In this document: positions 676-44,039 of the stretch, one piece after another
Position numbering within the stretch: the stretch's first letter is position 1
How the letters are laid out: every line of letters begins with the position of its first letter
IMG/VR virus record: IMGVR_UViG_2675903468_000006
Strand: one strand, 5' to 3'
DNA from: a virus
Lineage: Duplodnaviria > Heunggongvirae > Uroviricota > Caudoviricetes
Length of the DNA: 45,417 bases
Made by a program: the position numbers and the translations under genes
The notes under the pieces: model-generated
The model's input: only the letters and a program-made list of their open reading frames with translations
Databases searched by the model: none
Told to the model about the DNA's origin: nothing

Positions 676-1043
676 ATCGTCGGGTAGCTATCATCGCTCA
701 ACGCCCGGTTGATGAAGTACGTTACACGACCAATCACTTCCACCTCTTCCAGCGCGCTCCCCTCTATCGCCTCGCCATCTTCAGATATCAGTGCTTTACC
801 TGCCAGTTTTACAAACTGCACTTCACCACCAGCAAGAACGGCGAGTGTATCTCCCTGTCGCGCATTCAGCGACACGTCGATAACCGCGTATCCCTCTGAC
901 GTTTCCAGGATTCGACTATTCATTGATATCCCGCAAAACATATCGACTGTTAAGCGCCTTGAAAGATAATCAGCAGCCGGTGATGGAAATCCCATGTCAT
1001 AGCCCTCCGTTAGGGTTATAGAGCATGAACAAACGCTCCTCAC
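672..1043 (-). CDS. UmuD-like S24 peptidase (LexA/UmuD autoproteolytic family)
   Basis: GFPSPAADY motif as in UmuD, then GISM (cf. GDSM Ser) and downstream Lys; stop overlaps yedK stop on the opposite strand. Confidence 0.55.
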   Translation of the reverse strand: MRSVCSCSITLTEGYDMGFPSPAADYLSRRLTVDMFCGISMNSRILETSEGYAVIDVSLNARQGDTLAVLAGGEVQFVKLAGKALISEDGEAIEGSALEEVEVIGRVTYFINRALSDDSYPTI

Positions 1044-1278
1044 CTTCCGTAGGGGAAATATCCTTGAACGTGCTTATGCTGGCCTCTATCCATGCATTTG
1101 CATCCCGCAAGGAGAAATCCCAGTTCACCTTTTTCAGTTCCCGCACAAAATCAACTGTTCGTAGTGTCCTGCGACCGCTGGGCTCAACAACTACAGCAGA
1201 CCTAAATGCGGCCTCAATGTCATAACGACGCGGCATAAGCCCTCCACACAAAATACTGTTCATATATACAGTATTCAT
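997..1278 (-). CDS. Hypothetical protein upstream of and overlapping the UmuD-like gene
   Basis: 93-aa ORF overlapping the next gene by 47 nt in another frame; no recognisable domain. Confidence 0.3.
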   Translation of the reverse strand: MNTVYMNSILCGGLMPRRYDIEAAFRSAVVVEPSGRRTLRTVDFVRELKKVNWDFSLRDANAWIEASISTFKDISPTEGEERLFMLYNPNGGL

Positions 1279-1525
1279 TCATGATGGATACAGATCAAGC
1301 ACTGTTGGACAGGCATCTATTAACTTGTTGTTTTATTTGTGTATATAGTTATAAGTATGGAAATGTACTGAACTCATAGACCGTATTGTCGGTTATGAAT
1401 GTTCTTGATGACATTCATGTGGTGATAACTTTGAGTGTTCATAAGTGGACAAAATAATATAAAATCTCTATATTGCAATAACAAAATATATACACCAACA
1501 ATATAATTAGAAAGGCTTAACAATA

Positions 1526-2587
1526 ATGTTAAAACAGCGAAATTTAGGAATTGAGGCTCTAAGGATTTTTAGCTTCATAATGGTAGTTACTATACACACA
1601 GCTCCTGAATACAGTATTGGTGGAAATAATAATATTACTGCGTTAATATTGCAGTCGTTATCAAGGGGTGGATTTATATGCTTTTTTATTATAAGTGGAT
1701 ACTTTGCCCTTAACGATAACATTAAAGACATTAAGAAATACTACTATAATAAGATGATAACTATAGTTTTCCCATTTATTATATATGCTTATATACACTA
1801 CTTCATGGTTCATAATAATTTCGGCACATCATTAGAATTATGGAAGAATTTCATTTCTTTTGATGAACTAAAATCTTTTGTTAACGCGATCATGATTGGT
1901 CCATCTTTCAATGGTCCAAAGTTCATGTCTCTGCATTTCTGGTTTGTATACTGGATAGTCGGAGCATTTATTGTTTCTCCTTTCATTGCGTACATAGTAA
2001 ACCTTATACCTTCAGAAAAAAGGATGAGTGCAATATTTGTTTTAATCTCCTTAAATATGTTCCACTTGTACATAACGCGATATATCCCAAAGGCGAACAT
2101 TATATTCTTACCTTACATTGTTAATGGTTGGTTTTTGTATTTTCTAATTGGTGGCTTATTGAATGGCATTAAAGTGACGAATCCAATTAAAACATCAATG
2201 CTTATGTTCATGTCTGGTTATATTCTTACCATCATAATAACTGTATTAAATTATAATGTATTAGGCATTAAAAAAATGCCATACGGCGAAGATATTAATA
2301 TGATATTAATGGCTACAGGTCTATTTATTATGTTTTATAATTCTAACATTAAATGGCCAGCTAGTTTAACTCTGGTAATATCACGACATTCATACTCAAT
2401 GTATTTATGCCACGTATTTATACTTTATTTTATTTCAGGTTTACTGAAGCCAGTGACTGACATCTATTTTATAAATATAATATTTAAAATATTAACAGTT
2501 TCAATACTGTCGTTCATTTTTGCTTACTTGGTTGACACATTTATAGTATTTAAAGCAACCAGATTTTTTAAACAACTATACAAATAA
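1526..2587 (+). CDS. Acyltransferase-3 family membrane protein (OafA/Oac-like O-antigen O-acetyltransferase)
   Basis: Multi-pass hydrophobic 353-aa protein; N-terminal R...H motif (EALRIF...TIHTAP); strongly AT-rich; SD agaaagg. Confidence 0.75.
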   Translation: MLKQRNLGIEALRIFSFIMVVTIHTAPEYSIGGNNNITALILQSLSRGGFICFFIISGYFALNDNIKDIKKYYYNKMITIVFPFIIYAYIHYFMVHNNFGTSLELWKNFISFDELKSFVNAIMIGPSFNGPKFMSLHFWFVYWIVGAFIVSPFIAYIVNLIPSEKRMSAIFVLISLNMFHLYITRYIPKANIIFLPYIVNGWFLYFLIGGLLNGIKVTNPIKTSMLMFMSGYILTIIITVLNYNVLGIKKMPYGEDINMILMATGLFIMFYNSNIKWPASLTLVISRHSYSMYLCHVFILYFISGLLKPVTDIYFINIIFKILTVSILSFIFAYLVDTFIVFKATRFFKQLYK

Positions 2588-2595
2588 GAACTATC

Positions 2596-2632
2596 TACTC
2601 GCCAACTCCATCCAGTGAAGTTGGCGAGTTAT
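2596..2632. terminator. Hairpin between convergent acyltransferase and tailspike genes, T-run on plus strand
   Basis: About 10-bp inverted repeat CTCGCCAACT...AGTTGGCGAG followed by ttatttatt. Confidence 0.5.
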
Positions 2633-4759
2633 TTATTGAAGGTATCCTTTTTTGTTTTTCAGCATACGTGTCAGTGCTTCAGCCCACGCAGCCATGATAC
2701 TAATTTGTCCATCAACTGTTGGGTGAATGTTATCCCCATACCAACCAAGATTAGCCCCAAAATTCCTGCGCATATCAGCAAATTCATAGCCATTCTGGAT
2801 GCAAAACTTTTTCAATGCATGAGTATACTTTGCATGTGCAGCATAGTTTGAAGTGGTAACACCGTGAATGCCACTATTTGCCTCGGTAGTAAATATGGGG
2901 AAAATGCCGAACACAGGAATTGCACCAGCGGAAACTATTTTATTAGCGATTGTCTGCAGGTTAGTCGTGTACTGTGCTACAGCCACGCCACCCTGCTGAT
3001 CATTAGTTCCGATCATGCACAGAACTACTTTATGAGGCGAGTAATCAGTGGGCGAACCGTCTCCAGTAGCCCAATACGCTGAACTGGTTCCGCTGACAGC
3101 ATAGTTGGTGATACTTACTTTACCAATATTATCTGAGTTTTGAATAAATGATGGTAACAATCTAACTATGTCATTACTACACCAAGCTCCATAACTAATT
3201 GAGTCGCCGATAACACCGATACTTAGAGGCCGCTTAACTCTTAGTTTAAAATTTGTTGTTTTCAGACAATCAAGGAATGTTACACCTGCAGCATCACCTG
3301 CCTGAGATAATATAAAACCAGCATTAACAACAGTCCCATTGAATCTGTACACAGGCAATCCATTTAGTACAAATGTCATAACAGAATCGTTTACAACGAA
3401 CCCTAGGTTTACCTGCTGATTACTAATCCAGCCATATGCGCCACCATTTGGCAATGTGTATTCTTCATTTATTGTTTGTGAACCTGAGAAATTAAATCCT
3501 TTAACAGACAGTTTCCCTGATGCTACAGTTATTGAAGCAAAAACAACGGCACTTGATGTTTTTATAAAAACACCGCATGACTCAGCCTGTCCACTTGTAA
3601 ACGCATTAATCTCATAAAGAGATCCATTCTCTGGCGCTGTTGGATATAGAACTTGCGGGTTTGCTGCGAAATCAGATGACCACGTCACAGTGTTTGATGT
3701 TACGGTTCCTGTCCCTGATGCGCTAATGTCTCCTGTTGAAACATTATAGATGGTCTGATTCCAGGTTGTAAGATTCACAATAGAAGCCGACTCATTGAGC
3801 GACATATTAACTAAACCAGGAGCAACATTGTACAACTCCTTCAAGTCAATAAATGTATTTGCTGGCTTAATTAAAGTTGTTCCGCTTACAGGATTTTCAA
3901 TTCTTAAATTAGTTAATAAGCGTAAATCTTTCGTGTTAGGATTTTCGTCAACTTTAAAGGTCACTCCCTCATCGGCATGGATTTTAACTCCAGACAGATC
4001 AGGTCTTGCCCCTGAATAAAGTACGACACCAGCTCCTGAGAAATATAAAACCTCGTCTTTAGCGGACAGATAGTTACGGGCGTTATTAAATTGCGTTACC
4101 CCGTCATTAAACCCATCATATTTAATACCCCATTGGCGAGCCTCCTTTGGAGTTTCAGCTTCTACGTACAGGCCGTTAGAAATGACGAAAATGCTACCAC
4201 CATCCTCGGTCGCTGAGCCGCTATGTACTACACCGTAATTACCACCACCATCACCAACGGAGTAATAACCAAGCCATCTGACATGATCACCTTCCTTTAG
4301 ATTACCTGATCTCATATCAGAAACCGTCTGAAATACCCGAGAATACTGGTCGTTTAGGTATCCGTTGTTCAGGTCTGATCGTAGAGAAGCATCACCGACT
4401 CCAACCCACGCCCCCGGCCCTACACCGCCAGTTGAGTCTGGCGTTGAACCAGGGGGGACTACTTTGGGGAATTCACCATCCCATCTGTAGTATTCCCCGT
4501 TACTCTCCCAGCGCAGGCACTCGTTAACAAGGCTAATGGTGCTGCCAGCTTCAAAAGAATCCTTCGTGATATAGCCATAATTCACTATTGCCTGATTTGC
4601 ATCGTAATTAATACCGGCAATTGTACGATGCTCATCGCCAAATCTGTCAACATAAACATGGTCTTCCGAGGTCACGAACTCATCAATCTTTCCGGCGTTA
4701 AACTTCAGATCGCGTGGTGATTCGCTTGGGACAGACAAATTGGTAGGTTGCGTAGCCAT
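2633..4759 (-). CDS. Tailspike/tail fibre with C-terminal SGNH (GDSL) esterase domain
   Basis: C-terminal GDSISYG, GTND and DNIHPT blocks; fibre-like N-terminus; last gene of tail operon; AT-richer than upstream tail genes. Confidence 0.75.
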   Translation of the reverse strand: MATQPTNLSVPSESPRDLKFNAGKIDEFVTSEDHVYVDRFGDEHRTIAGINYDANQAIVNYGYITKDSFEAGSTISLVNECLRWESNGEYYRWDGEFPKVVPPGSTPDSTGGVGPGAWVGVGDASLRSDLNNGYLNDQYSRVFQTVSDMRSGNLKEGDHVRWLGYYSVGDGGGNYGVVHSGSATEDGGSIFVISNGLYVEAETPKEARQWGIKYDGFNDGVTQFNNARNYLSAKDEVLYFSGAGVVLYSGARPDLSGVKIHADEGVTFKVDENPNTKDLRLLTNLRIENPVSGTTLIKPANTFIDLKELYNVAPGLVNMSLNESASIVNLTTWNQTIYNVSTGDISASGTGTVTSNTVTWSSDFAANPQVLYPTAPENGSLYEINAFTSGQAESCGVFIKTSSAVVFASITVASGKLSVKGFNFSGSQTINEEYTLPNGGAYGWISNQQVNLGFVVNDSVMTFVLNGLPVYRFNGTVVNAGFILSQAGDAAGVTFLDCLKTTNFKLRVKRPLSIGVIGDSISYGAWCSNDIVRLLPSFIQNSDNIGKVSITNYAVSGTSSAYWATGDGSPTDYSPHKVVLCMIGTNDQQGGVAVAQYTTNLQTIANKIVSAGAIPVFGIFPIFTTEANSGIHGVTTSNYAAHAKYTHALKKFCIQNGYEFADMRRNFGANLGWYGDNIHPTVDGQISIMAAWAEALTRMLKNKKGYLQ

Positions 4760-4764
4760 ATTGA

Positions 4765-4800
4765 TTCCATAAAAAAACCCGGCACGGTGGCCGGGTTTGG
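4765..4800 (-). terminator. Intrinsic terminator after the J-like gene
   Basis: Minus-strand CCCGGC-loop-GCCGGG hairpin followed by a T-run; tailspike ATG about 14 nt beyond. Confidence 0.5.
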
Positions 4801-4817
4801 TTGGTCGGGGACGGTTC

Positions 4818-7295: not shown

Positions 7296-7698
7296 ATTCG
7301 AAAAACTCCACTTTGGTGAATGCCCGCTGAATGACCAGCAACGAGTCCATGCGCACGCTTCCGTTCTCGCCGCGCGAGTGCAGCGCCTGCCGGTTCAGTA
7401 CCAGGCCAACATGCGCAGGTTGCGCGCCGCGGTACCCGACGAATATCCCGCCATCGACCGGTTTATCGAGCTTGCGCCAGAAAACGACGTCTCCCTGATA
7501 GCAGGTGAAGAAATCCTCACCGGCTTCGTAGTCCGGCGTCTGGTGCAGTTCAATGCCGAGAACGTGCCGGTAATACAGCACCACCAGCCCCCAGCAATCC
7601 AACTTCTCGAACGAACAGGCCCGGTTAGCCCATGGCACGCCGATCACCTTCCGAACAAAATCAGAGGTACTGCAGGCCGGTATATTCCGTTGGGTCAT
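7282..7698 (-). CDS. Tail assembly protein with NlpC/P60 peptidase fold (gpK-like)
   Basis: DCWGLV Cys motif and downstream HVGLV His; position in tail tip cluster. Confidence 0.6.
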   Translation of the reverse strand: MTQRNIPACSTSDFVRKVIGVPWANRACSFEKLDCWGLVVLYYRHVLGIELHQTPDYEAGEDFFTCYQGDVVFWRKLDKPVDGGIFVGYRGAQPAHVGLVLNRQALHSRGENGSVRMDSLLVIQRAFTKVEFFEYGVD

Positions 7699-8131
7699 AG
7701 AGCCTTCCGATGTTGTTGTTCAGCGGGTTGGTGACGGACAGGGTTACTGACGCGGAGTCAGCATCGATGTCCACTGTCTTGACGTATAACTGCCAGGACT
7801 TAATCGGCACAGACACGTCCCCGCTGTCGAAGATCTGCCTTGTGGCCGTGATGGCCGTCAGCCGGGCCGCGCCCTTCCACTGCTTCATCAGCGCTTTGAT
7901 GTCCGACGAAAGCCGCCCTAACTTCACCGTCGCGTCGATTACCGGCGTGCCGCTCTGCTGACTCTCCTCGATTTCAAAGCGCGCGGGCGTGTACGTCTGG
8001 CCGCCGAGCGTCTTCGGAAAGAACTGCTTATCGACCAGGTGGATGTAGCCAAAGGATGGATGGTAGAAAGTAATGGTATCGTACAGCCCACGCGTCGGCC
8101 GTTGCTGCTTGTACTCCCTGAAGCTCTGCAT
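7661..8131 (-). CDS. Minor tail protein (gpL-like position)
   Basis: Position between distal tail gene and NlpC/P60 gene; coupled ends. Confidence 0.45.
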   Translation of the reverse strand: MQSFREYKQQRPTRGLYDTITFYHPSFGYIHLVDKQFFPKTLGGQTYTPARFEIEESQQSGTPVIDATVKLGRLSSDIKALMKQWKGAARLTAITATRQIFDSGDVSVPIKSWQLYVKTVDIDADSASVTLSVTNPLNNNIGRLYDPTEYTGLQYL

Positions 8132-8628
8132 TACGGCACCCTCGGAAGTGATTCTGGGTCTCTATTGTCCGGATAACCCGTAACCACGATATCCAGCCAC
8201 GAATCCCACGGTGGCGGCAGCTCTACAATGATGTCGTCGAACTCGTCGTCGGCGTTGTAGAGGTGGTTCGCAATAACTGTCCCTGTCCAGGTCACCACAC
8301 CGCCGTCAATACTGGTTTGCACCGGCATCTGCGTGAAGTGAAGCTCCTGCAGCTGCAGACCGCTACCGCCAAGGTTGATATTCATCCGGAACCAGTTCAG
8401 GCCCCGGTTGAGATAGTTCGGGCTGCGCAGCCACTGCTGGAAAGCGCGCTCCTGGTCCAGAGTGAAGATCCATGTCAGGGACCATGTCACTTTCAGGTCG
8501 TGAGTAAGGTTCTGGAAGATAGCCGGGCCGACCGCTGGCTGGTCGGTCTGGAACCCGGTATCGAGCGTCATATTTTTGCTGGCCTTCTGCGCCAGCGGAA
8601 GCCAGTCGGGATAGTCGATAATTGGCAT
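8131..8628 (-). CDS. Minor/distal tail protein (gpM-like position)
   Basis: Immediately downstream of tape measure with overlapping stop/start. Confidence 0.45.
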   Translation of the reverse strand: MPIIDYPDWLPLAQKASKNMTLDTGFQTDQPAVGPAIFQNLTHDLKVTWSLTWIFTLDQERAFQQWLRSPNYLNRGLNWFRMNINLGGSGLQLQELHFTQMPVQTSIDGGVVTWTGTVIANHLYNADDEFDDIIVELPPPWDSWLDIVVTGYPDNRDPESLPRVP

Positions 8629-11558
8629 CAGCCCTGCCCCCTTGGCGTGCGCTTAACGTTCAAATTGCTGGTAATAGCCTGGCTTGCTGGTCCACCATTA
8701 TTCATGTCAGCGATGAATGTATCGATAGTCCAGGTGCCGTCACTGCCCTGCGTAGCCTGTGCATCGACCGACGCTGAAGAGTAATTGTTGATATTCAAAA
8801 TTACCCCGCCACCGCCTCCGGCAGTCATTTCCTTGTTGCTGATCACCTTGCCGTTGTCGCCCGGTATCATGTACTGCTTACCGGTGCTGGCCTGGTAAAT
8901 CTCCGGCATTCCACCTTCGCCGACCTGATACATTCCGCTTGCACTAACCGGGCCGCCGTTCTTACGCTTTCCTGACAGTGCCAGGATGCCAGCCATAGCT
9001 CCGATGCCGATCGCCACCGCTCCACCGAATGACGCAATGGAGGACATGATGGCCGCTGGCGTCCATGCTGCAGTTGTGGCCGCCGCCGCCGCGGTAGACG
9101 TCGCCGTGGTAGTGGCAATGCCTGCTGCCTGCGCCGTGGTAGATGCTGCAACCGCTGCAGTGGTGGCCGTCTGCCCCATGATTGCCGATTTAACCCACTC
9201 AACGCCCATCTGGACGAAGGTGTTGATGAGGCTGTTCAGTACGGTATTCCCGATCGAGCGCAGAGCATCGGAAGCTGACATGCTCCCGGTGATGATGCCG
9301 GTTAAGGCATTGGACGCATTACCGGCCAGTGCATCAAAGGACGCCGCCAGCGCTTCATTGCCTGCGCTCTGGTTACGGAAAATCTCCCATTGCGCCGCGA
9401 TGCGAGCCTGCTCGTACTCCCTGTCAGCTGATGCGCGCAGCATAAGCGCGTTCTGGTGAGTAATAATCCCCTGCTGCTCGTAAGCCTGAATAAGCGCGAG
9501 TTTTCGGGCATTTTCATTCGCCAGTTGCTGCACCGGATCCACACCGCCAGCAGCTTCCTGCAGTGGGCTGACAGCCTGATCGGCACGGATTTTCGCAAGG
9601 TTGGCCTGGTGAGTTGCTTCCAGTCGCTCGGATGTCTGATTGAACTGCTCCTGACTGATTTTCTTCGCAGCCAGAGCGGTATTCAGGTCCTCAACATCCT
9701 GCCTGTAGCTGGCGTTCTCGCGGGCCTCAGGAAGAAGTTTCTCCGCTGCAGCCTGAGCCTTAATGGCGTTGGCGGTGTCCCATTTTTTGGCCGCATACTG
9801 ACCGGCAAGTGCTATCTGCTCTTTGGTGGCACCTTTCCCGAGCGACTGCTGCGCATTCAGAATAGCCTGCTCTCGGCTCAGCTTATTCGTTGAATCGGCA
9901 GCGAGTTCTGACTGCTGTTTCAGGTTCGCCAGCTTCTGAGCAATGGTTTCTGCCTGAGATGCTCCTTTTTTCTGCTCCGATTTAAGCTTCTTTTGCTCTT
10001 CCGTATTTTTGTACGTAGCGGCAGCATCATCTTCCATCTGCTTGGCATGCGGATCATCCTTCGCAAATCCAGCATCTTCGGCAGCGTATTGCGCCTGCAA
10101 CCGTGCGCGAGCCTCGCCCTGCAACTTCGAGAGTGCCAGGTTGCGCTCGGACTGTTTGATCAGGTTCTTCTGTCCGGCGGTAAGGTTATCCGTGGACTTA
10201 TTCAGGCTGTCTACATTGATCTTCGCATTGGCTGCCTCTCTTGCCAGATCGACAAGTTTACCAGCCAGCTCAGCAATGGCTGACTGCCCATCTTTGGAGG
10301 AGGACTTCATTTCCTGGAGCTTTTTCGCCAGTTCCTGAAGTGCTTCAGGCGACGGGTTGTTGCTCAGGTCTGATAACTCTCTTGCAAGATCAAACGCTGA
10401 TTGCTTGCTGATGCCGAGGCGTGAAGAAAGCGTGCTGACCGTTGAAGATAAAGAGTTCACAATGCCAGAGGCATATTGCCCCTGACTGTTGGCCTGTTGA
10501 ATGGCCTGGCTCCAGTCATTTGTGGTAACGCCAAGCGCAGAAAGCTCATCGTTGAACTTTTTGATGCTTGGAGACGCACCGCCAACAGCCGCCAGTGCGC
10601 GATCGCCTAACGTAATGAAAGCATCAGACGCGTCACTAATGGCTTTAGGAATCTTTGAGATCGCCTGGTTATACTCGAGCAGTGCCTGATTTCTCAGCAA
10701 AGTAGCCACGTCGGCATTTACGCGCGCCAGGGCAGCATACTTGTCGGAAAGCGCGGCCACGCCTTGCGATGAAATGGTGATAACCTTATCCATCGCTTCA
10801 GCTGCGTCTTTCAGCGCATCCATGGCATTCTTGCCGCCATTCAGCGAAGTAATCAGCACGCCAGCCAGCACCGAACCAAGCGCGATTATGGCACCAACGA
10901 CTGCGCCGCCGGGACCGAATGCACCAGCGAGTTGAGACCCCTGCTGAGCGAACGCCACCAGCGCAGACTGGCCGCCCTGCACCTGTACTATGAAATCCTG
11001 AACCTGATAACCAGCCTGCTGCATGCTGGCCTTCCAGCCTTTATTACTGCCCATCGAGGTATCAGCAGCGCCTTTCATGTCGAAGAGCCGCCCAGTCAAT
11101 TCGCCGATCTTCTGCTTCTCTTCGTCTGTAGCTTTTGACCCGGCTCGGAGCTGGGCTGCCAGAACCGCGGCACTACGCGCGCCATTCTCCTGCGCTTCGT
11201 CCAGCACAGCCAGCTGGTTACCCAGCGCCTCGATGATTGATTCTGCGCGACTGAATTCACTGCTCGCGCCGCCGGTACCGCTGCGGGCCTCTTCCATAGC
11301 GCGGGCAATTCCGCTCACGTTGGTGTTCAGCTTGCGCAGCTGGTTATCCATGGAATTGGCATAACCAGCCAGTTCAGTAAAAGCGGATCCGGTTTGAGAC
11401 GTGCTCTGGTCGAGGTTATCCATTCCCTTCCCGGACTGCTGGGCTGCAGCATCCAGTTTATCCAGAGCATCAATGGCCTGTTTACCGCCCTGCAGCAGCG
11501 GCTCAATATTGGCGCTGACTTCATAAACGATGCTACCGGCGTTTTTCTCACCTGCCAT
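8628..11558 (-). CDS. Tail tape measure protein
   Basis: 976 aa, Ala/Gln/Leu-rich coiled-coil composition, hydrophobic Gly/Ala-rich C-terminal segment, position. Confidence 0.85.
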   Translation of the reverse strand: MAGEKNAGSIVYEVSANIEPLLQGGKQAIDALDKLDAAAQQSGKGMDNLDQSTSQTGSAFTELAGYANSMDNQLRKLNTNVSGIARAMEEARSGTGGASSEFSRAESIIEALGNQLAVLDEAQENGARSAAVLAAQLRAGSKATDEEKQKIGELTGRLFDMKGAADTSMGSNKGWKASMQQAGYQVQDFIVQVQGGQSALVAFAQQGSQLAGAFGPGGAVVGAIIALGSVLAGVLITSLNGGKNAMDALKDAAEAMDKVITISSQGVAALSDKYAALARVNADVATLLRNQALLEYNQAISKIPKAISDASDAFITLGDRALAAVGGASPSIKKFNDELSALGVTTNDWSQAIQQANSQGQYASGIVNSLSSTVSTLSSRLGISKQSAFDLARELSDLSNNPSPEALQELAKKLQEMKSSSKDGQSAIAELAGKLVDLAREAANAKINVDSLNKSTDNLTAGQKNLIKQSERNLALSKLQGEARARLQAQYAAEDAGFAKDDPHAKQMEDDAAATYKNTEEQKKLKSEQKKGASQAETIAQKLANLKQQSELAADSTNKLSREQAILNAQQSLGKGATKEQIALAGQYAAKKWDTANAIKAQAAAEKLLPEARENASYRQDVEDLNTALAAKKISQEQFNQTSERLEATHQANLAKIRADQAVSPLQEAAGGVDPVQQLANENARKLALIQAYEQQGIITHQNALMLRASADREYEQARIAAQWEIFRNQSAGNEALAASFDALAGNASNALTGIITGSMSASDALRSIGNTVLNSLINTFVQMGVEWVKSAIMGQTATTAAVAASTTAQAAGIATTTATSTAAAAATTAAWTPAAIMSSIASFGGAVAIGIGAMAGILALSGKRKNGGPVSASGMYQVGEGGMPEIYQASTGKQYMIPGDNGKVISNKEMTAGGGGGVILNINNYSSASVDAQATQGSDGTWTIDTFIADMNNGGPASQAITSNLNVKRTPRGQG

Positions 11559-11574
11559 GTCGTTCTCCGGACAT

Positions 11575-11600
11575 AAAAAAACCCGCCGAAGCGGGTTTTA
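11575..11600 (-). terminator. Intrinsic terminator after the NYN gene, directly upstream of tape measure
   Basis: Minus-strand ACCCGC-TTCG-GCGGGT hairpin plus T7; identical hairpin recurs near 13933. Confidence 0.6.
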
Positions 11601-11615
11601 AGAAATGATTAAAGT

Positions 11616-12248
11616 TTACAAATTAGCGTACGTTTCAGGGATATGGAGGTCAGAATGAATAGGCAAAGATGGTTTGACTCTATGACCGAGAGTATAAGTG
11701 AATACTTGCTTTCCTTCAGATCTCGCAAATTTGATGATGGGTGCAAAATCTGAGTCACCTGTTACCAAGCAAAAAACGTCTGCTTGGTTTTTTAAAGTCA
11801 TAGATGAGATATCTAATGCGATCCTCATATCCACACCTTTCTGCTGAAGATTGGGAGAAACATTATGAGCATTAATTGTTGCCGTCCCTCCTGCACCTGA
11901 CTGAAGAGCAGCATCAGAAACCTTCCACCCTCTAAAATTGAGTTCCCCTAGGCGCACAGCAAAAAAAGGCTTGACCTTAAGCTCATCTAACAATGTATTA
12001 CAATCAATGGCCATTTGTGTAGCGCCAAAGTTAATAACAGCGTTGGATATAGGATGTGTCTTAGTACCCGTGAAAGGCTCAGCGTCGTAATAAAACACAC
12101 GATACAACCGCATCCCTAATAACTCAGCTCGTGCTTTAATTTTATTAACTAAATCTTCGACATTTTGAGCTGTCATTGGTGCTGCCTGAGTACCTAATTT
12201 TCGGCGCAAGAACCCTGCGTCAAGAAGTACTGCGTACTGTCTTTCCAT
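11616..12248 (-). CDS. NYN/LabA-like domain protein (predicted RNase), moron
   Basis: Motifs VLLDAGF, KGVDMRIALD, LVTGDSDF; AT-rich; own promoter and terminator. Confidence 0.65.
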   Translation of the reverse strand: MERQYAVLLDAGFLRRKLGTQAAPMTAQNVEDLVNKIKARAELLGMRLYRVFYYDAEPFTGTKTHPISNAVINFGATQMAIDCNTLLDELKVKPFFAVRLGELNFRGWKVSDAALQSGAGGTATINAHNVSPNLQQKGVDMRIALDISSMTLKNQADVFCLVTGDSDFAPIIKFARSEGKQVFTYTLGHRVKPSLPIHSDLHIPETYANL

Positions 12249-12352
12249 TTTTATTAACCGAATTCGGGGAATTAGAGGGAGAGTGGTGGGTTAGGCTCGC
12301 GGAGGTAAACCTCACTTGTATGGGGTGCGAGCCGCCCACATCATTGTTGTGA

Positions 12353-12381
12353 ACTATAACTCCTACTCAATAACCCTGCAA
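12353..12381 (-). promoter_or_regulatory. Candidate sigma70 promoter for the NYN moron
   Basis: Minus-strand TTGCAG, 17-nt spacer, TATAGT; about 100-nt leader with inverted repeats. Confidence 0.35.
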
Positions 12382-12427
12382 GTATGGCTAGTGCAAAATA
12401 AAAGGTAATTTTGTAAATTTCATTTTA

Positions 12428-13099
12428 TTAACTACTAACTTGTGCCCTGCGCGCGGCCTGTTTAGCCAGGTATTCGTCGGCGATGCTGTCGTACTCTTCG
12501 CGAGTGAAACCTTTCTGGTCCGGGTATTTCGTGGCCAGCAGCATCTGAAATTCGGTCATCGTTAGCTGGGAAGCTTCGGCGCGATTCATGCCGAAGTGAC
12601 TTCGTGCCGCGCTGATGTAGTCGAAGGCTTTAAACTCGGTAGTGCGCTCGTCAGTCTCGTGACGCTGCAACTGTCGAACTTTGGCTTTACCTACGACCCC
12701 GTGCTGCATGAGGTGCTGCGCCAGTACGATGATGTCGTTCTTCGGCATCTGGCCCGGGCGGTAGACGACACAATGTCGCCACCCTTTCCATTCGCCAATC
12801 ATTGGCGTCAGGTCATCATCACAACACGCCTGCAGCACAAGCATGCACGTTGATAACAGCTTCTCAGCGGCGCGGTTGAATGAAGGTGATAGCCATTCAG
12901 GAAAGCGGCCCAGCCCGCCGGTGCACACCTCAATGAGTTGAGCGACATCATTCCCGTGGATGGTGGCATACGCCTGCACAATCTCTTCCGGAGTGCCGAT
13001 TCTCGCCATAGCCTCGAATGACGGCCGTAACAGGTAATCTTTCCCGCCTTCGCGGCTGTCGCTGATAGAGAGTTCGCCAATATCTGTTAAAGCGGTCAT
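12428..13099 (-). CDS. Tail assembly chaperone (between major tail and tape measure)
   Basis: Position; no slippery site identified. Confidence 0.45.
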   Translation of the reverse strand: MTALTDIGELSISDSREGGKDYLLRPSFEAMARIGTPEEIVQAYATIHGNDVAQLIEVCTGGLGRFPEWLSPSFNRAAEKLLSTCMLVLQACCDDDLTPMIGEWKGWRHCVVYRPGQMPKNDIIVLAQHLMQHGVVGKAKVRQLQRHETDERTTEFKAFDYISAARSHFGMNRAEASQLTMTEFQMLLATKYPDQKGFTREEYDSIADEYLAKQAARRAQVSS

Positions 13100-13156
13100 A
13101 GGCCTTCCAGTAAACGGTCATTATCAAGGGCGGCACGCCACCCTTTGGAATGTCCG

Positions 13157-13900
13157 TTAAGTAACTGTTACCGTATGCACGGCCACAAAGTTGCCGTCTT
13201 CGGTGTTGATGATGATCTGCGCGCTGCCGGTCGCCACACGGTTAACCGTGACGGTAGTACCTGATGCCGTGGCAGTGGCTTTGGTGGGATCGGTTGAAGC
13301 GACGGTGAAGCCAGTATTTGTTGCGCCGGTTGGTGCGATATTCACCGTGAAGGTGCTGGTACCGCCAGCCGCGCCAGTGCTGGTAGTCGGGGTTACCGTC
13401 ACACCAGTCACTGCTACCGCAGTGATTTCGTTCACTTCGATAGTGCTCGCGTCACCGACCTTGAACTCAGTAGAGAACGTGACGATATCGTTAGTGCCAC
13501 CGTCAGAACTCAACGCGTTAATGTTCATGTAGCCGATGAATTCAATCGGACCGTAGTCCATGCGCACCCAGATACCTGGCTGGCGCTTAGCCTTCAGCTC
13601 ATCAGCGAAATACTTGATGAACTTGCCGACACCGTACTGGTCCAGTTTGTCCTTCTTGCGCACTTCACCTTCAAAGCTCAGGGTGAAGTCACTGTTGGTG
13701 ATGATGGTCTCGACATAGCCGCCGCCGTCATCCGCATCAGAGGTAACCGAGTTAGGGTTGAAGTCGAAGCCTTTCGACGTACCAGCAGCCAGCGCCTTCC
13801 ACTCAGATTCGAGTGGTTTGACATCCGGGCAGCCATCGGCGACTTCCAGCACGACCGCACCGCCGAACAGGCGTTCGTTCGAGTTCTGGCAATTAGCCAT
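13157..13900 (-). CDS. Major tail protein with C-terminal Ig-like (Big_2-type) domain
   Basis: Thr/Val/Gly-rich beta-type C-terminus, size and position; SD agaggag. Confidence 0.7.
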   Translation of the reverse strand: MANCQNSNERLFGGAVVLEVADGCPDVKPLESEWKALAAGTSKGFDFNPNSVTSDADDGGGYVETIITNSDFTLSFEGEVRKKDKLDQYGVGKFIKYFADELKAKRQPGIWVRMDYGPIEFIGYMNINALSSDGGTNDIVTFSTEFKVGDASTIEVNEITAVAVTGVTVTPTTSTGAAGGTSTFTVNIAPTGATNTGFTVASTDPTKATATASGTTVTVNRVATGSAQIIINTEDGNFVAVHTVTVT

Positions 13901-13924
13901 TTGAAACTCCTCTTTGACGTATAA

Positions 13925-13950
13925 AAAGAAAACCCGCCGAAGCGGGTTAT
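13925..13950 (-). terminator. Intrinsic terminator upstream of major tail gene
   Basis: Same ACCCGC-TTCG-GCGGGT hairpin as at 11582, followed by TTTCTTTTT. Confidence 0.55.
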
Positions 13951-13963
13951 TTGGTTGGGATGG

Positions 13964-14347
13964 CTATTCGCCGTAAGTGCAGGCGAACTGGAGTCTGAAG
14001 ACTATTCGCCCTTCTTCTGTGAGCACCGGCGCGGGAATTGCGCCCATGTTCTGGATGTAGCCGACGCACTCGTCAGCCATGGGGTTGGCCTGGACGTAAT
14101 CGACGATGCGCTGTACGGCATTGAGTGCGTCTTTGCGCTTATCTTTTGCGCCTACGACGTCGACCAGGACGTGATACTCAGAGCCGAGGTCAGTCCGAAT
14201 ATACGACCCGCCGTTAGGCCTGAACACCATGATCGCCTTCGACAGGTCTCCCGGGTCGTCGTACATCAGCTGCTGCACCGTGAAACCGGTAGTTAGCCCG
14301 GCGTCGCCGAACATGTTGCGCACCCGCTCGTGCATCATGGGTGTCAT
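13964..14347 (-). CDS. Tail completion / tail terminator-like protein
   Basis: 127 aa, position before major tail gene. Confidence 0.4.
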   Translation of the reverse strand: MTPMMHERVRNMFGDAGLTTGFTVQQLMYDDPGDLSKAIMVFRPNGGSYIRTDLGSEYHVLVDVVGAKDKRKDALNAVQRIVDYVQANPMADECVGYIQNMGAIPAPVLTEEGRIVFRLQFACTYGE

Positions 14348-14808
14348 AGCGAAAGCTCCTTGCGCATCACCGCATCAACGTTATCGCGCTCATCATTCGC
14401 GCCTTTGGTCAGGAATTGCGGTTCACCGTGCGGATCCCAGTAGTTGCCCTTTCCGGTGCCGCCGCCGAACTCTTTCGGTTTCTGCGGACCGAACTCAGAT
14501 CGGTTGCTGGTTATACCAAAGTGCGCGCGCGGCTGACCTTTCAGCTTGCCTGACGCCTCATGAACGTACGCGGCATAGTTTGCTGAGTAACCGATGCGCC
14601 CGGTGATGAACACGCCGCCAGCGTCAATTTCGCGAAACTGGCTGTTAATCAGCGTAGAGGTGTCGATCGGGGTGTAATAGGCTGCCCGTGCCCCGATGAG
14701 AATCATCGCCGACTGCAGCGCGCGAATCACCTTGCGCCACTTCACGTCGTTGATGACATCGTTCAGGTGCTTTTTCGCCTGGCTAACGCCCTTCACTTTG
14801 ATGCCCAT
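14344..14808 (-). CDS. Head-tail joining protein (HK97 gp10-like)
   Basis: Size and position; overlapping stop/start with neighbours. Confidence 0.4.
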   Translation of the reverse strand: MGIKVKGVSQAKKHLNDVINDVKWRKVIRALQSAMILIGARAAYYTPIDTSTLINSQFREIDAGGVFITGRIGYSANYAAYVHEASGKLKGQPRAHFGITSNRSEFGPQKPKEFGGGTGKGNYWDPHGEPQFLTKGANDERDNVDAVMRKELSL

Positions 14809-14810
14809 GG

Positions 14811-15158
14811 CTACACCCCCGTCAGGATGGCGTAATCATCCACTAGGCGCTCGAACGTGTCGGCGTAGCGGATAACCTGCCGCACCTCGTCTGCTCCGGC
14901 GACAACCGGATCGGATTCGGTTGACTGGCCAATCAGCAGGTAATCACCCGCCGCTGCCAGTGCATACTCAGTCCAAACGGTATTCTTCACGACGATTTCA
15001 GATCCGATATTGCCGATGCGCTTTGACAGGCCACCTTCGTAATCACAGAGAATCGACTCAGGGGCAGAGAAGCCGAGCGAGTCACCGTATTCATCGTTAC
15101 CGAGATTGCGCCAGATTGTCGCCGTCGCGGTGTATGACCAATTAGCGGTTGACGACAT
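14811..15158 (-). CDS. Head-tail adaptor / head closure protein
   Basis: Position in connector cluster. Confidence 0.4.
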   Translation of the reverse strand: MSSTANWSYTATATIWRNLGNDEYGDSLGFSAPESILCDYEGGLSKRIGNIGSEIVVKNTVWTEYALAAAGDYLLIGQSTESDPVVAGADEVRQVIRYADTFERLVDDYAILTGV

Positions 15159-15331
15159 CAGTCATCCCTCCATCGCAGCACAGCGGCGCCAGTCGCCCGG
15201 ATGCGCGGGCAGTTGATGAACCACTCGCCGTCCGACTTAACGTAACCGGTTGTCTCCCGCCCTGTGTCGGTCATCACCCAGACGCGGGTGAACGCGCGCG
15301 GAAGGCCGTGCTTAACTGATTTGTACGTCAT
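15158..15331 (-). CDS. Small coupled ORF (57 aa), below the track cutoff
   Basis: ATG overlaps upstream stop (TGATG) and its stop overlaps the next ATG; translates MTYKSVKHGLPRAF...LRWRDD. Confidence 0.35.
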   Translation of the reverse strand: MTYKSVKHGLPRAFTRVWVMTDTGRETTGYVKSDGEWFINCPRIRATGAAVLRWRDD

Positions 15332-15711
15332 CAGCAACCCCCGACCACCATGAACAGGCCGACGCTGTTACCGGCGCTAATCGGCAACTCGCCGGTGCAG
15401 CCGCTGGTATCGAGACGGGCCAGCGAGTCGCGCAGCCAGGTGATGCTGTCAGCATCGTAATCGAACGAGCGGGACGCGCCAGAAGGCGCACCCTGCGATT
15501 TGATGCGGCGCGCGCCGGACGAAGTAGCCATAAGCGCGGCGGCATACATCAGGATCAGCTTCGCGGTGCAGTCGTCATAACCAGCGCCATCGAGACAAGG
15601 GATAATCTTGTTCACCACGCAGAGAATCGGCTCCAGCAGCGCGCCCGGGATGGAGTAACCCAATTCACCGAGGAACGCCTGCACGTCTGCCGCTGTGATT
15701 GGGTCAGCCAT
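15331..15711 (-). CDS. Head-tail connector family protein (hypothetical)
   Basis: Position after the coiled-coil gene. Confidence 0.4.
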   Translation of the reverse strand: MADPITAADVQAFLGELGYSIPGALLEPILCVVNKIIPCLDGAGYDDCTAKLILMYAAALMATSSGARRIKSQGAPSGASRSFDYDADSITWLRDSLARLDTSGCTGELPISAGNSVGLFMVVGGC

Positions 15712-15713
15712 GG

Positions 15714-16001
15714 TTATTTCGCCTTTTTCTTCAGCTCGTCGATTTGTTTCTGAGCCTCGTCGAGGTCAGCCTGCAGCTTCGTGTTGTCAGCGGTCAGCGA
15801 CTCAACTTTGCCATTGGCCTCGTCGAGGTCAGCCTGCAGCTTTTGCACGTCGGCAGGTGTCGCAACTTCCAGGACCTGGTCGCTTACCGGGATCGCTTTT
15901 CCTGCCAGCCACAGCGGGAGAGTCTCGCCTTTGTAGACCTCACCCTTTTTCAGTTCGTGGCTGTCATGGGTGAGCAACCATTTTTGTTCTTTACCAGCCA
16001 T
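15714..16001 (-). CDS. Small coiled-coil protein with internal repeat (KLQADLDEA twice)
   Basis: Start set at MAGKEQ with SD GGAGG; 26-bp direct DNA repeat encodes the repeated heptads. Confidence 0.45.
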   Translation of the reverse strand: MAGKEQKWLLTHDSHELKKGEVYKGETLPLWLAGKAIPVSDQVLEVATPADVQKLQADLDEANGKVESLTADNTKLQADLDEAQKQIDELKKKAK

Positions 16002-26064: not shown

Positions 26065-26140
26065 TGGTGCTGATTGACGGAGTTGAACCGCCGACATCCT
26101 GCTTACAAGGCAGGCGCTCTACCTACTGAGCTAAATCAGC
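26065..26140 (-). tRNA. tRNA-Thr (anticodon UGU), phage-borne
   Basis: 76-nt cloverleaf folded by hand: 7-bp acceptor stem, D-arm, anticodon loop CUUGUAA, T-loop TTCAACT, encoded CCA. Confidence 0.8.
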
Positions 26141-43915: not shown

Positions 43916-43998
43916 GACGGGGAGGATGTCAAGCAACTGATAGCCAGTTATGAGCTGGCTATTGGGTGCGAAAGCACTGCTCAGTTATCCCCCATTTT

Positions 43999-44027
43999 GC
44001 CCGGCCCCGCGCCGGGCGCTCTTTTTC
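43999..44027 (+). terminator. Hairpin plus T-run after tnpB (terminator or right-end hairpin of the IS)
   Basis: GCCCGGC-CCCGC-GCCGGGC followed by gctcttttt. Confidence 0.5.
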
Positions 44028-44039
44028 TGGAGATCACAG

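What the first reader, a model, noticed from the sequence alone, without database searches (positions are those of the whole stretch)
11560..12430. NYN/LabA-like RNase moron inserted between tail chaperone and tape-measure genes
Seen in sequence: ORF 11616..12248 (minus) carries NYN-type acidic motifs (VLLDAGF at the N-terminus, KGVDMRIALD, LVTGDSDF). Its DNA is visibly AT-rich against GC-rich tail genes. It has a sigma70-like promoter (TTGCAG-17-TATAGT), a roughly 100-nt leader with inverted repeats and no obvious SD, and its own terminator abutting the tape-measure start. Established knowledge: in siphoviruses the chaperone gene normally sits directly before tape measure. Inference: an autonomously expressed RNase cargo gene, a candidate for phage defence, superinfection exclusion or host RNA manipulation.
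Basis: partly seen in the sequence, partly recalled or inferred. Interest (0 to 1): 0.75.

Follow-up and report, generated by a model that had tools for sequence, protein, structure and literature searches.

The report
Phage RNase cargo gene with RNA leader
A prophage carries an 873-bp add-on gene cassette for an NYN-type RNase in the classic cargo slot before the tape-measure gene, and the RNase gene always travels with a conserved folded RNA, absent from Rfam, that probably keeps the enzyme in check.

Summary
ORF 11616..12248(-) encodes a 210-aa NYN-domain protein: Pfam PF01936 scores 48.8 bits against a cut-off of 24.2, the AF2 model has pLDDT 92, and the nearest folds are the LabA-like 2qip and the MARF1 NYN domain. 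The acidic residues are conserved. The gene lies in an AT-rich 873-bp insert (11571-12443; 41% GC against 55-56% in the flanks) between the DUF6246 gene and the tape-measure gene, and has its own intrinsic terminator. Related phages have this slot empty (CobraSix, E. coli 30EVA1) or filled with other cargo (BHUENT6, 20A24, L006). This is the same slot as the original HK97 "moron".

The new point is the leader. Its "inverted repeats" are a conserved structured RNA (12286-12339). It starts a few nt after a conserved promoter position and has three helices and a conserved 11-13-nt bulge (…AUACAAG…). One RNA family precedes NYN genes in 38 of 76 viral loci. Covariation supports the fold (94% paired; 9 of 17 pairs compensatory). 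All 19 true copies found by NYN-blind DNA scans sit directly upstream of an NYN gene. Rfam 15 has no match, and no protein partner is conserved.

The best reading is an RNA-controlled, probably toxic RNase module, resembling type III toxin-antitoxin and AbiF/RCd22 systems. Its function is untested.

The parts
11571..12443 (-). The whole inserted cassette (873 bp; moron). It replaces the 16 nt that separate the DUF6246 gene and the tape-measure gene in phage CobraSix.
   Evidence: BLAST breakpoints against CobraSix, BHUENT6, 30EVA1 and 20A24. CobraSix junction sequence. GC 0.411 against 0.554-0.559 in the flanks.
12353..12381 (-). Putative sigma-70 promoter: -35 TTGCAG (12381-12376), 17-nt spacer, -10 TATAGT (12358-12353). 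Predicted start is near 12346.
   Evidence: Read from the sequence. Not called by the consensus scan. CTTGCx and TATAGT are conserved in position in L007 and L008. The -10 ends 13-18 nt before helix P1 in most homologous loci, scoring 7.8/12 on average against 5.4 for shuffles.
12286..12339 (-). Conserved structured RNA at the 5' end of the NYN transcript. P1 is 12339-12335 with 12290-12286. P2 is 12333-12327 with 12300-12294. The conserved 13-nt bulge ACCCCAUACAAGU is 12326-12314. P3 is 12313-12310 with 12305-12302, with loop UUUA.
   Evidence: Alignments A1 and A10. Pair counts: 99% paired with 2 compensatory pairs in the enterobacterial type; 94% paired with 9 of 17 compensatory pairs in the broad type. 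Model R2 hit at 12272-12354, 87.7 bits, the only copy in the window. No Rfam match. MFE z = -4.1.
12249..12285 (-). A 37-nt C/U-rich then A/U-rich spacer between the RNA element and the ATG. It has no Shine-Dalgarno and contains a small CCGAAUUCGG palindrome.
   Evidence: Shine-Dalgarno absence is shared by all enterobacterial-type copies.
11616..12248 (-). NYN-domain (LabA-like) protein, 210 aa; predicted metal-dependent endoribonuclease.
   Evidence: Pfam PF01936 48.8 bits; phrog_5783 1e-67. AF2 and Foldseek. Conserved Asp residues. Homologues cover the full 210 aa, so the ATG at 12248, not the internal Met used by PGAP, is the start.
11578..11599 (-). Intrinsic terminator of the cassette (9-bp stem, GC-rich, followed by a T-run), 20 nt upstream of the tape-measure start codon.
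   Evidence: Related terminators follow the gene in L006 and L007.
12397..12429 (.). AT-rich inverted repeat at the upstream edge of the cassette, overlapping the DUF6246 stop codon. It could be an UP-element-like region or a junction feature.
   Evidence: I1. Not analysed further.
12428..13099 (-). Upstream flank: DUF6246 / phrog_791 gene, in the position of a tail assembly chaperone. Its last ~5 codons (up to ~20 against BHUENT6) are replaced by cassette sequence.
8628..11558 (-). Downstream flank: tape-measure protein gene. Its Shine-Dalgarno (CCGGAG) is retained immediately after the insert.

Best explanation
SHOWN.
- Window 11571-12443 is a self-contained, horizontally mobile cassette (a 'moron'). 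It sits in a variable slot of the tail operon.
- Its order is: promoter-like hexamers, a 54-nt three-helix RNA element at the very 5' end of the predicted transcript, a spacer without Shine-Dalgarno, a 210-aa NYN-fold protein with an intact acidic active-site signature, and an intrinsic terminator.
- The RNA element belongs to a family that is not in Rfam. The fold is supported by covariation and is read on the sense strand (many G-U pairs).
- It is found only directly upstream of this NYN subfamily, and no protein-coding partner is conserved. The functional unit is therefore RNA plus NYN.

INFERRED.
- The RNA is a negative control element for a potentially toxic RNase.
- In most family members the outer helix is followed by a U-tract. 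Most transcripts should then end as a ~70-nt RNA, with only read-through making NYN mRNA.
- In the window's enterobacterial variant the U-tract is lost. The 5' structure and the missing Shine-Dalgarno would still keep translation low.
- The invariant bulge is the likely binding or cleavage site for the NYN protein itself. It would act either as an autoregulatory operator or substrate, or as an antitoxin-like RNA that sequesters the enzyme.
- The lysogen would then carry a poised RNase that is unleashed when the RNA:protein balance collapses, for example on superinfection. This works like type III toxin-antitoxin / abortive-infection modules (ToxIN, AbiF-RCd22).
For: Cassette and mobility:
- Empty sites in CobraSix and 30EVA1, and other cargo in BHUENT6, 20A24 and L006.
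- The same cassette, with its leader, in a baseplate module (L007) and a lambdoid nin region (L008).
- GC 41% against 55-56%. Terminator.

NYN identity.

RNA:
- The leader is more conserved than the protein-coding sequence.
- Broad-type covariation: 93.9% paired, 9 of 17 pairs and 33 cells compensatory, 0 of 500 shuffles as good, slid controls 28-55% paired.
- Enterobacterial type: 99.1% paired, 2 compensatory pairs.
- Reciprocal model detection links the two types through L031, L044 and L016.
- Reverse-strand scores are ~24 bits against ~80 bits for the sense strand.
- NYN-blind DNA scans: 14 of 14 and 5 of 5 true elements lie directly upstream of an NYN gene.
- All 17 enterobacterial-type viral loci carry the element.
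- No Rfam match.
- No conserved neighbouring gene in 42 loci.

Negative-control reading:
- U-tract after P1 in 13 of 18 broad-type copies.
- The start codon lies only 8-43 nt after the element, and most copies lack a Shine-Dalgarno.
- The promoter -10 ends 13-18 nt before P1.

Precedent: prophage AbiF with the promoter-motif RNA-terminator-toxin layout, where the RNA neutralises the toxin by direct binding (PMC12373285).
Against: - There is no experimental evidence that this NYN is an active or toxic RNase, that the RNA is made, or that the two interact.
- The window's own variant lacks the U-tract, so the termination step cannot apply here.
- There are no tandem RNA repeats as in ToxI, and one copy per locus.
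- The promoter fails a standard consensus scan.
- PADLOC gives only weak domain-level hits.
- The one NYN defence candidate that has been tested, HEC-09, showed no protection.
- The enterobacterial type has only two compensatory pairs, which amounts to two events between two clades.
- The single-sequence MFE fold differs from the comparative model in the apical part.
Confidence: 0.55

Rival explanations
1. The leader is a plain cis-regulatory or stabilising element of a non-toxic enzyme. The 5'-terminal hairpin protects the mRNA from 5'-end-dependent decay, or acts as an attenuator read by a host or phage factor. NYN is an RNA-processing or host-RNA-manipulating enzyme, or an anti-defence enzyme, used by the phage itself during lytic growth. 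It would be reached by read-through of the co-oriented late operon.
For: The cassette is co-oriented with the surrounding phage operon in all four contexts inspected. The window's type has no terminator after the element. Bacterial LabA-like NYN proteins have no demonstrated toxin role (PMC5499597). HEC-09 gave no defence.
Against: A mere stabiliser would not need an invariant 11-13-nt bulge kept across proteins only 40% identical. Exclusive linkage to one protein subfamily points to a specific RNA-protein relationship. The cassette's own promoter and terminator and its foreign composition fit prophage-expressed cargo better than a lytic-cycle function.
Confidence: 0.25
2. The element is a ligand- or signal-sensing riboswitch-like attenuator. 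The bulge and helices form an aptamer embedded in a terminator hairpin, which turns NYN synthesis on or off in response to a small molecule or nucleotide signal.
For: The outer helix plus U-tract resembles a terminator in 13 of 18 broad-type copies. The unpaired nucleotides are highly conserved. The element sits at the 5' end of the transcript.
Against: No alternative (antiterminator) pairing is evident. The enterobacterial type keeps the element but has lost the U-tract. The element is small, with a single bulge. Association with just one gene family is more typical of protein-RNA pairs. There is no Rfam riboswitch similarity.
Confidence: 0.08
3. The hairpin is a DNA-level feature, such as a recombination or mobility site, or a replication or packaging signal. 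It would mediate movement of the cassette between phages rather than act as an RNA.
For: The cassette is clearly mobile. Short inverted repeats flank its core (I8). A near-identical terminator ends a different small insert in BHUENT6.
Against: The element lies ~100 nt inside the cassette, not at its boundary. Its position is fixed 13-18 nt after a -10 hexamer and just before the ORF. Numerous G-U pairs and a threefold strand asymmetry in model score favour a sense-strand RNA. No recombinase is linked.
Confidence: 0.05
4. The gene is a decaying passenger without current function, and the leader conservation merely reflects recent common descent.
For: The exact cassette is rare: 1 of 5,426 complete E. 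coli genomes. The A14 copy sits in a degraded prophage.
Against: The ORF is intact, with invariant catalytic-type residues across 35 homologues down to 41% identity. Compensatory changes in the RNA show purifying selection on the structure. There are 539 homologues at E<=1e-5.
Confidence: 0.04

Closest known systems
HK97 gene 15 moron (the founding example of a phage 'moron')
   Same: [quoted passage not shown] Like this cassette it has its own promoter and terminator, a deviating GC content, and is absent from close relatives (PMC3594210).
   Different: HK97 gp15 is a small inner-membrane superinfection-exclusion protein. Here the cargo is a cytoplasmic NYN-fold nuclease with a conserved structured RNA leader.
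AbiF(Cd)-RCd22 (prophage phi027, C. difficile) and the Rfam abiF motif RF03085
   Same: A prophage cargo with the order: sigma-A/sigma-70 promoter, ncRNA with a conserved motif, Rho-independent terminator, then read-through into the toxin gene. The RNA is found specifically upstream of one protein family (PMC12373285).
   Different: The toxin there is an Abi_2/AbiD/F (HEPN-like) protein, not NYN. RCd22 carries two abiF motifs, whereas here there is one three-helix element with a bulge. No Rfam hit to RF03085 or to any other family. The window's variant has no terminator between the RNA and the ORF.
Type III toxin-antitoxin systems (ToxIN, CptIN, TenpIN; AvcID)
   Same: An RNA gene lies immediately upstream of a nuclease or enzyme toxin under one promoter, often with an intervening terminator. 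These systems are frequently carried on mobile elements and act in abortive infection.
   Different: Classical antitoxin RNAs are tandem repeats processed by the toxin into pseudoknots. Here there are no repeats. The toxin folds differ (ToxN/Kid-like against NYN/PIN-like). Toxicity and neutralisation are untested.
LabA-like NYN proteins (COG1432; PDB 2qip) and the MARF1 NYN domain
   Same: Same fold and the same acidic motif pattern. MARF1 is a proven endoribonuclease.
   Different: Sequence similarity is confined to aa 131-186. A profile of the family finds no PDB sequence at E<=0.1. The protein is 210 aa against ~150 aa, with an inserted beta-hairpin region at about aa 57-130. It is a solo, phage-borne protein without OST-HTH or other RNA-binding domains.
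HEC-09 (PADLOC candidate; an NYN protein embedded in Hma defence loci)
   Same: An NYN-domain candidate defence protein with MARF1-like aspartates.
   Different: The match is weak and covers the core only (E=4e-4, aa 129-178). HEC-09 has an N-terminal HTH-like domain and showed no protection against the phages tested.
Regnase-1/ZC3H12A (eukaryotic NYN/PIN-like RNase); comparison from my own knowledge, not tested here
   Same: An NYN-type RNase that recognises stem-loops and cleaves a stem-loop in its own mRNA for negative autoregulation. This is the same logic as the autoregulatory version proposed here.
   Different: It is eukaryotic, has a zinc finger, and its target lies in the 3' UTR. There is no evidence of homology beyond the fold.

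Membership tests
NYN domain (Pfam PF01936; LabA-like, PIN-like superfamily) | Profile HMM match above the curated gathering threshold | tested here: met
   48.8 bits against 24.2, aa 131-186. All 120 listed homologues carry PF01936.
NYN domain (Pfam PF01936; LabA-like, PIN-like superfamily) | PIN-like/NYN alpha-beta fold | tested here: met
   AF2 pLDDT 92.4, pTM 0.85. Foldseek top hits are 2qip (7e-7) and the MARF1 NYN domains 5yaa and 6fdl (3e-5), with TM-score to target 0.66-0.73.
NYN domain (Pfam PF01936; LabA-like, PIN-like superfamily) | Conserved acidic (Asp) metal-binding residues: N-terminal D, the 'GVD' motif and the 'GDSDF' motif | tested here: met
   D55, D140, D146, D165 and D167 are invariant and D10 is >=90% conserved in 35 sequences. 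Spatial clustering in the model was not checked.
NYN domain (Pfam PF01936; LabA-like, PIN-like superfamily) | Metal-dependent endoribonuclease activity | not testable with these tools
   Needs biochemistry.
Phage moron (Hendrix/Juhala definition) | Present between two genes that are adjacent in related phages | tested here: met
   In CobraSix and E. coli 30EVA1 the DUF6246 stop lies 12 nt from the tape-measure ATG. The insert is 11571-12443.
Phage moron (Hendrix/Juhala definition) | Base composition different from the surrounding genes | tested here: met
   41.1% against 55.4-55.9% GC.
Phage moron (Hendrix/Juhala definition) | Own terminator | tested here: met
   11599..11578(-), 9-bp stem plus T-run.
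Phage moron (Hendrix/Juhala definition) | Own promoter | tested here: inconclusive
   TTGCAG-17-TATAGT is present, but its -35 matches only 3 of 6 and the scan did not call it. The hexamers and their spacing to the RNA are conserved across cassettes, and relatives score up to 10/12.
Phage moron (Hendrix/Juhala definition) | Expressed from the repressed prophage | not testable with these tools
   Needs lysogen RNA-seq.
Type III toxin-antitoxin / AbiF-RCd22-like RNA-protein modules | Structured ncRNA encoded immediately upstream of the toxin gene, in the same orientation and under a shared promoter | tested here: met
   Covariation-supported element 8-43 nt before the start codon. The promoter -10 ends 13-18 nt before the element.
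Type III toxin-antitoxin / AbiF-RCd22-like RNA-protein modules | Terminator between the RNA and the toxin ORF, setting the RNA:toxin ratio | tested here: not met
   Not met for the window's copy: there is no U-tract after P1, in any of the 7 enterobacterial-type copies. It is met in 13 of 18 broad-type relatives.
Type III toxin-antitoxin / AbiF-RCd22-like RNA-protein modules | Tandemly repeated antitoxin RNA units (classical ToxI, CptI, TenpI) | tested here: not met
   No tandem repeats in 11400-12700. One model hit per locus.
Type III toxin-antitoxin / AbiF-RCd22-like RNA-protein modules | Toxin belongs to a known type III toxin family (ToxN, AbiF/Abi_2, AvcD) | tested here: not met
   Pfam, NCBIfam and PADLOC give only NYN/PIN hits.
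Type III toxin-antitoxin / AbiF-RCd22-like RNA-protein modules | The protein is toxic, and is neutralised by direct binding of the RNA | not testable with these tools
   Needs toxicity and rescue assays, plus EMSA.
Any curated Rfam family (release 15) for the leader RNA | Covariance-model match | tested here: not met
   No hit on the leader at E<=10 in the window or on the best broad-type copy. No hit at gathering threshold in 16 loci or in the whole window.
Known PADLOC defence systems | Significant full-length match to a system protein | tested here: not met
   Only HEC-09 (4e-4) and NYN (8e-4), both on the ~50-aa catalytic core.

The most novel reading that the evidence does not exclude
The NYN gene and its leader form a new family of two-component RNA-protein toxin modules. 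The toxin is an NYN-fold endoribonuclease. It is held in check by a single-copy, three-helix RNA encoded at the 5' end of its own transcript, acting as a type III-like antitoxin and/or autoregulatory substrate. The module spreads among temperate phages of Proteobacteria as a moron and gives lysogens abortive-infection-type immunity. It would be the first functional assignment for bacterial LabA-like NYN proteins and a new RNA class absent from Rfam.
Probability: 0.3. Interest if true: 0.8.

Novelty: new variant of a known kind. Interest (0 to 1): 0.66.

Why it matters
Bacterial LabA-like NYN proteins are abundant, with thousands of members, but no biochemical role has been established for them (PMC5499597).

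This work yields a compact, testable unit. It is a ~0.87-kb phage cassette in which an NYN protein is strictly coupled to a conserved RNA that is not in Rfam. That coupling points directly to an RNA partner, substrate or regulator for the enzyme.

If the RNA restrains a toxic RNase, two things follow. RNA-antitoxin (type III-like) logic would extend to the PIN-like/NYN superfamily. A new prophage-borne defence or exclusion candidate would be added.

The locus also documents the chaperone/tape-measure junction as a recurrent cargo hotspot in this phage group, with five different occupancy states. It echoes the original HK97 moron.

Finally, it flags two annotation errors that would hide the biology. 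The NYN start is called at an internal Met, and a tape-measure gene start is called too late.

Tried and rejected
- Rfam at a permissive threshold found only terminator-like noise around 11575-11620 and nothing on the leader. This held for the window leader and for a strong broad-type copy.
- A profile search of PDB sequences with the family alignment gave 0 hits at E<=0.1. Only fold comparison links the family to solved NYN structures.
- PADLOC gave only weak core hits, so the gene is not filed under any known defence system.
- The first loose DNA pattern for the enterobacterial RNA returned mostly chance matches: 66 of the 80 listed lacked the stems. The hits had to be filtered by stem context.
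- The broad-type model R1 does not detect the window's own copy globally. It gives only a local 6.3-bit match. Homology was instead established through intermediates (L016, L031, L044) and by the reciprocal model R2.
- A search for a conserved protein partner (antitoxin or immunity gene) among +/-3 neighbours in 42 loci found none.
- A search for further copies of the RNA in the 45-kb window and in 41 kb of the E. coli A14 region, as possible trans targets, found none.
- Tandem repeats of the ToxI kind: none.
- I looked by eye for a pseudoknot partner of the bulge, tRNA-like 3' ends, and similarity to CRISPR repeats. Nothing was consistent across variants, so I dropped these.
- One mis-specified reverse-strand coordinate (L127) spoiled alignment A8, and A7 contained a spurious hit. 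Both were discarded, and A9 and A10 were used instead.
Full report
**1. The observation**

- It matches Pfam NYN (PF01936) at 48.8 bits, above the 24.2-bit cut-off, over aa 131-186.
- It matches PHROG 5783, a phage family of unknown function, over its full length at 1e-67.
- NCBIfam and PADLOC give only sub-threshold hits to the catalytic core: TIGR00288 at 27 bits against a cut-off of 178, HEC-09 at 4e-4, and the PADLOC 'NYN' model at 8e-4.

An alignment of 35 homologues down to 41% identity shows D55, D140, D146, D165 and D167 invariant and D10 nearly so. An AlphaFold2 model built on that alignment is confident (pLDDT 92.4, pTM 0.85). Its best PDB neighbours are the LabA-like protein 2qip and the NYN endoribonuclease domain of MARF1. 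A sequence profile of the family finds no PDB entry at E<=0.1, so this is a divergent NYN subfamily.

The surrounding features also check out.
- The region is AT-rich: the insert is 41.1% GC, against 55.9% for the tape-measure gene and 55.4% for the DUF6246 gene.
- The terminator at 11599..11578 is called by the scan and ends 20 nt before the tape-measure start codon.
The consensus scan does not accept them, because the -35 matches only 3 of 6.
- No Shine-Dalgarno precedes the ATG.

**2. It is an insertion in a variable slot**

In Enterobacter phage CobraSix the DUF6246 gene ends 12 nt before the tape-measure ATG...TAA CCGGAGAATGAC ATG. The same holds in an E. coli 30EVA1 prophage once the tape-measure ORF is read to its true start.

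Breakpoints against these genomes place the insert at window 11571-12443, 873 bp replacing 16 nt. The tape-measure Shine-Dalgarno is retained right after it.

Other relatives fill the same slot differently.
- A 98-aa ORF on the opposite strand in phage BHUENT6 and its relatives.
- A 70-aa ORF on the opposite strand in E. coli 20A24.
- The NYN gene plus ~3.7 kb of further cargo in a metagenomic relative, L006. That cargo includes an Arc-like protein, a P22 antirepressor N-terminal domain protein and an IalB-domain protein.

The exact cassette is rare. It occurs in 1 of 5,426 complete E. coli genomes, strain A14, in a degraded prophage next to yciA/tonB. The window itself is a more complete relative of that prophage.

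This slot is the site of the very first 'moron', HK97 gene 15 (PMC3594210). The 'tail chaperone' label for DUF6246 rests on position only.

**3. The cassette moves, and it moves with its leader**

An 84%-identical NYN lies beside a Baseplate_J gene in another phage (L007). A 60%-identical one lies in the nin region of a lambdoid Klebsiella prophage, between dnaB and Q (L008).

Aligning the upstream regions shows a ~55-nt hairpin in all of them. It is better conserved than the coding sequence, and the two clades differ by compensatory substitutions. The -10 TATAGT and a CTTGCx -35 are also conserved in L007 and L008. Similar terminators follow the gene in L006 and L007.

**4. A structured RNA family tied to NYN genes**

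A protein-based scan of viral contigs gave 76 loci. By inspection and by two covariance models, 38 of them carry one RNA family immediately upstream of the NYN start. These are essentially all loci whose NYN is >=~40% identical and that have upstream sequence available.

The shared architecture is:
- an outer helix P1 and a second helix P2;
- an 11-13-nt bulge on the 5' side with a conserved core (ACAUAUAACAG, CCAUCCAAGU or CCAUACAAGU);
- an apical hairpin P3, with zero or one unpaired nt before P2 closes.

In the window:
- P1 is 12339-12335 with 12290-12286.
- P2 is 12333-12327 with 12300-12294.
- The bulge is 12326-12314.
- P3 is 12313-12310 with 12305-12302.

Covariation supports the fold.
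- For the 16 'broad-type' sequences, 93.9% of cells pair and 9 of 17 pairs show changes on both sides (33 cells). No shuffle in 500 does as well, and sliding the partner by 1-3 columns drops pairing to 28-55%.
- The seven distinct enterobacterial-type sequences pair at 99.1%, with two compensatory pairs. That is few events. It is backed by reciprocal model detection. The broad-type model finds L031, L044 and L016/L017 at the right place (E 0.001-0.04). The enterobacterial model finds L044 (4e-7) and L031 (2e-5), and weakly four broad-type copies.

Frequent G-U pairs, and reverse-strand scores of ~24 bits against ~80 bits, identify the NYN-sense strand as the folded one.

Rfam 15 has nothing similar, even at E<=10.

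The linkage also holds in the reverse direction. NYN-blind DNA pattern scans of the viral collection returned 14 and 5 true copies, and every one lies directly upstream of an NYN gene. All other matches lacked the stems.

No protein-coding neighbour is conserved across 42 loci. The window holds a single copy, and none was found elsewhere in the prophage or in 41 kb of the A14 chromosome.

**5. Anatomy that bears on mechanism**

- A sigma-70-like promoter whose -10 ends 13-18 nt before P1 is found in most loci, scoring up to 10/12. The mean is 7.8 against 5.4 for shuffled sequence. The element therefore forms the extreme 5' end of the transcript.
- In 13 of 18 broad-type copies P1 is followed at once by a U-tract, which makes an intrinsic-terminator configuration.
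- None of the enterobacterial copies, including the window's, has this U-tract. A C/U-rich tract follows instead.
- The start codon lies 8-43 nt after the element, and most copies lack a Shine-Dalgarno.

Each feature points to low or conditional NYN synthesis. The invariant bulge implies a specific partner. Because the only constant companion is the NYN protein, that protein is the most economical candidate.

Several more distant NYN subfamilies, which the models do not match, also carry unusually stable hairpins upstream, often with U-runs. In 10 of 17 the upstream 110 nt has z<=-3. The theme of a structured RNA before the NYN gene therefore seems general.

**6. Comparison with known systems**

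What it works like. The layout promoter, conserved-motif RNA, optional terminator, nuclease gene, carried on a prophage, matches type III toxin-antitoxin loci. It is especially close to the recently dissected AbiF-RCd22 module of a C. difficile prophage. There the RNA down-regulates the toxin and neutralises it by direct binding, in cis and in trans (PMC12373285).

Whether it is a member. It is not a member of any described type III family.
- The protein is NYN, not ToxN, Abi_2 or AvcD.
- There are no tandem RNA repeats.
- The window's variant lacks the intervening terminator.
- Toxicity is untested.

The only NYN defence candidate tested so far, HEC-09, is a weak match and showed no protection. 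Bacterial LabA-like NYN proteins remain without an assigned function (PMC5499597).

**7. Verdict**

As a moron the locus is textbook. As an NYN gene it is a new member of an annotated but uncharacterised family.

What lifts it above the ordinary is the RNA element: covariation-supported, absent from Rfam, and strictly NYN-linked.

My preferred explanation, at about 0.55, is that the RNA is a negative control element and likely direct partner of a potentially toxic RNase. The stronger claim, at about 0.3, is that this is a new type III-like toxin-antitoxin or abortive-infection family.

Rival explanations:
- a plain regulatory or stabilising leader of a non-toxic phage RNase (~0.25);
- a ligand-sensing attenuator (~0.08);
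- a DNA-level mobility site (~0.05);
- a functionless passenger (~0.04).

Noticed in passing
L003 20117-20677 (E. coli A14, NZ_CP028760; equals window 11616-12176): RefSeq/PGAP annotates the NYN gene as 186 aa from an internal Met. This drops the conserved N-terminal YAxLxDAGF motif with Asp10. Homologues align over all 210 aa, so the start is probably mis-called. P0004 is called the same way.
   Followed up: partly
L004 882-3977 (E. coli 30EVA1): The tape-measure gene is annotated as 882..3206, but the ORF runs to 3977 and starts 12 nt after DUF6246. The apparent 784-nt 'gap' is an annotation artefact, and this site is empty.
   Followed up: yes
L001 575-855 (phage BHUENT6); window 11565-11598: BHUENT6 has a second small insert between the tape-measure gene and the next tail gene, which overlap in the window at 8628. 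That insert ends in a terminator (AAACCCGCTTCGGCGGGTTTTTT) that is 91% identical to the NYN cassette's terminator. Shared terminators at the ends of different morons may mark recombination-prone module ends.
   Followed up: partly
L001 3865-4161(+); L005 3750-3962(+): Alternative cargo in the same slot: a 98-aa and a 70-aa ORF on the strand opposite to the tail operon. Neither has a Pfam match.
   Followed up: partly
L006 1564-5183: In a metagenomic relative the slot holds ~3.7 kb of additional cargo after the NYN gene. It includes an Arc-like repressor, a P22 antirepressor N-terminal domain protein (reminiscent of an immI region) and an IalB-domain protein.
   Followed up: partly
window 26065-26140 (-): A tRNA-Thr (anticodon TGT) gene lies inside the prophage.
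   Followed up: no
window 12397-12429 and 11612-11622 / 12410-12420: An AT-rich 15-nt inverted repeat lies right after the DUF6246 stop codon, at the upstream edge of the cassette. An 11-nt inverted repeat (AAATTTACAAA ... TTTGTAAACTT) brackets the promoter-to-stop-codon core. Both could be chance in AT-rich DNA.
   Followed up: no
L084 4883-4966; L058 3086-3151(-); L016 7728-8280: Rfam hits near other NYN loci: sRNA-Xcc1 just downstream of the NYN gene in L084, a Pistol ribozyme ~850 nt upstream (opposite strand) in L058, and STnc100 (two copies) plus isrI in L016.
   Followed up: no
L051, L057, L058, L064, L067, L069, L070, L071 (110 nt upstream of NYN): More distant NYN subfamilies, including the one in Stx2a-converting phages (~27% identity), have different but unusually stable hairpins, often followed by U-runs, directly upstream of the gene (MFE z from -3 to -9.6).
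   Followed up: partly
L003 29086-31042 (E. coli A14); window 43039-45417: The A14 copy of this prophage is degraded. An InsQ/TnpB gene abuts a truncated Acb1-family (anti-CBASS) / portal-region pseudogene. The window matches A14 only at 4386-15725 (98%) and at the integrase end (99.9%).
   Followed up: no
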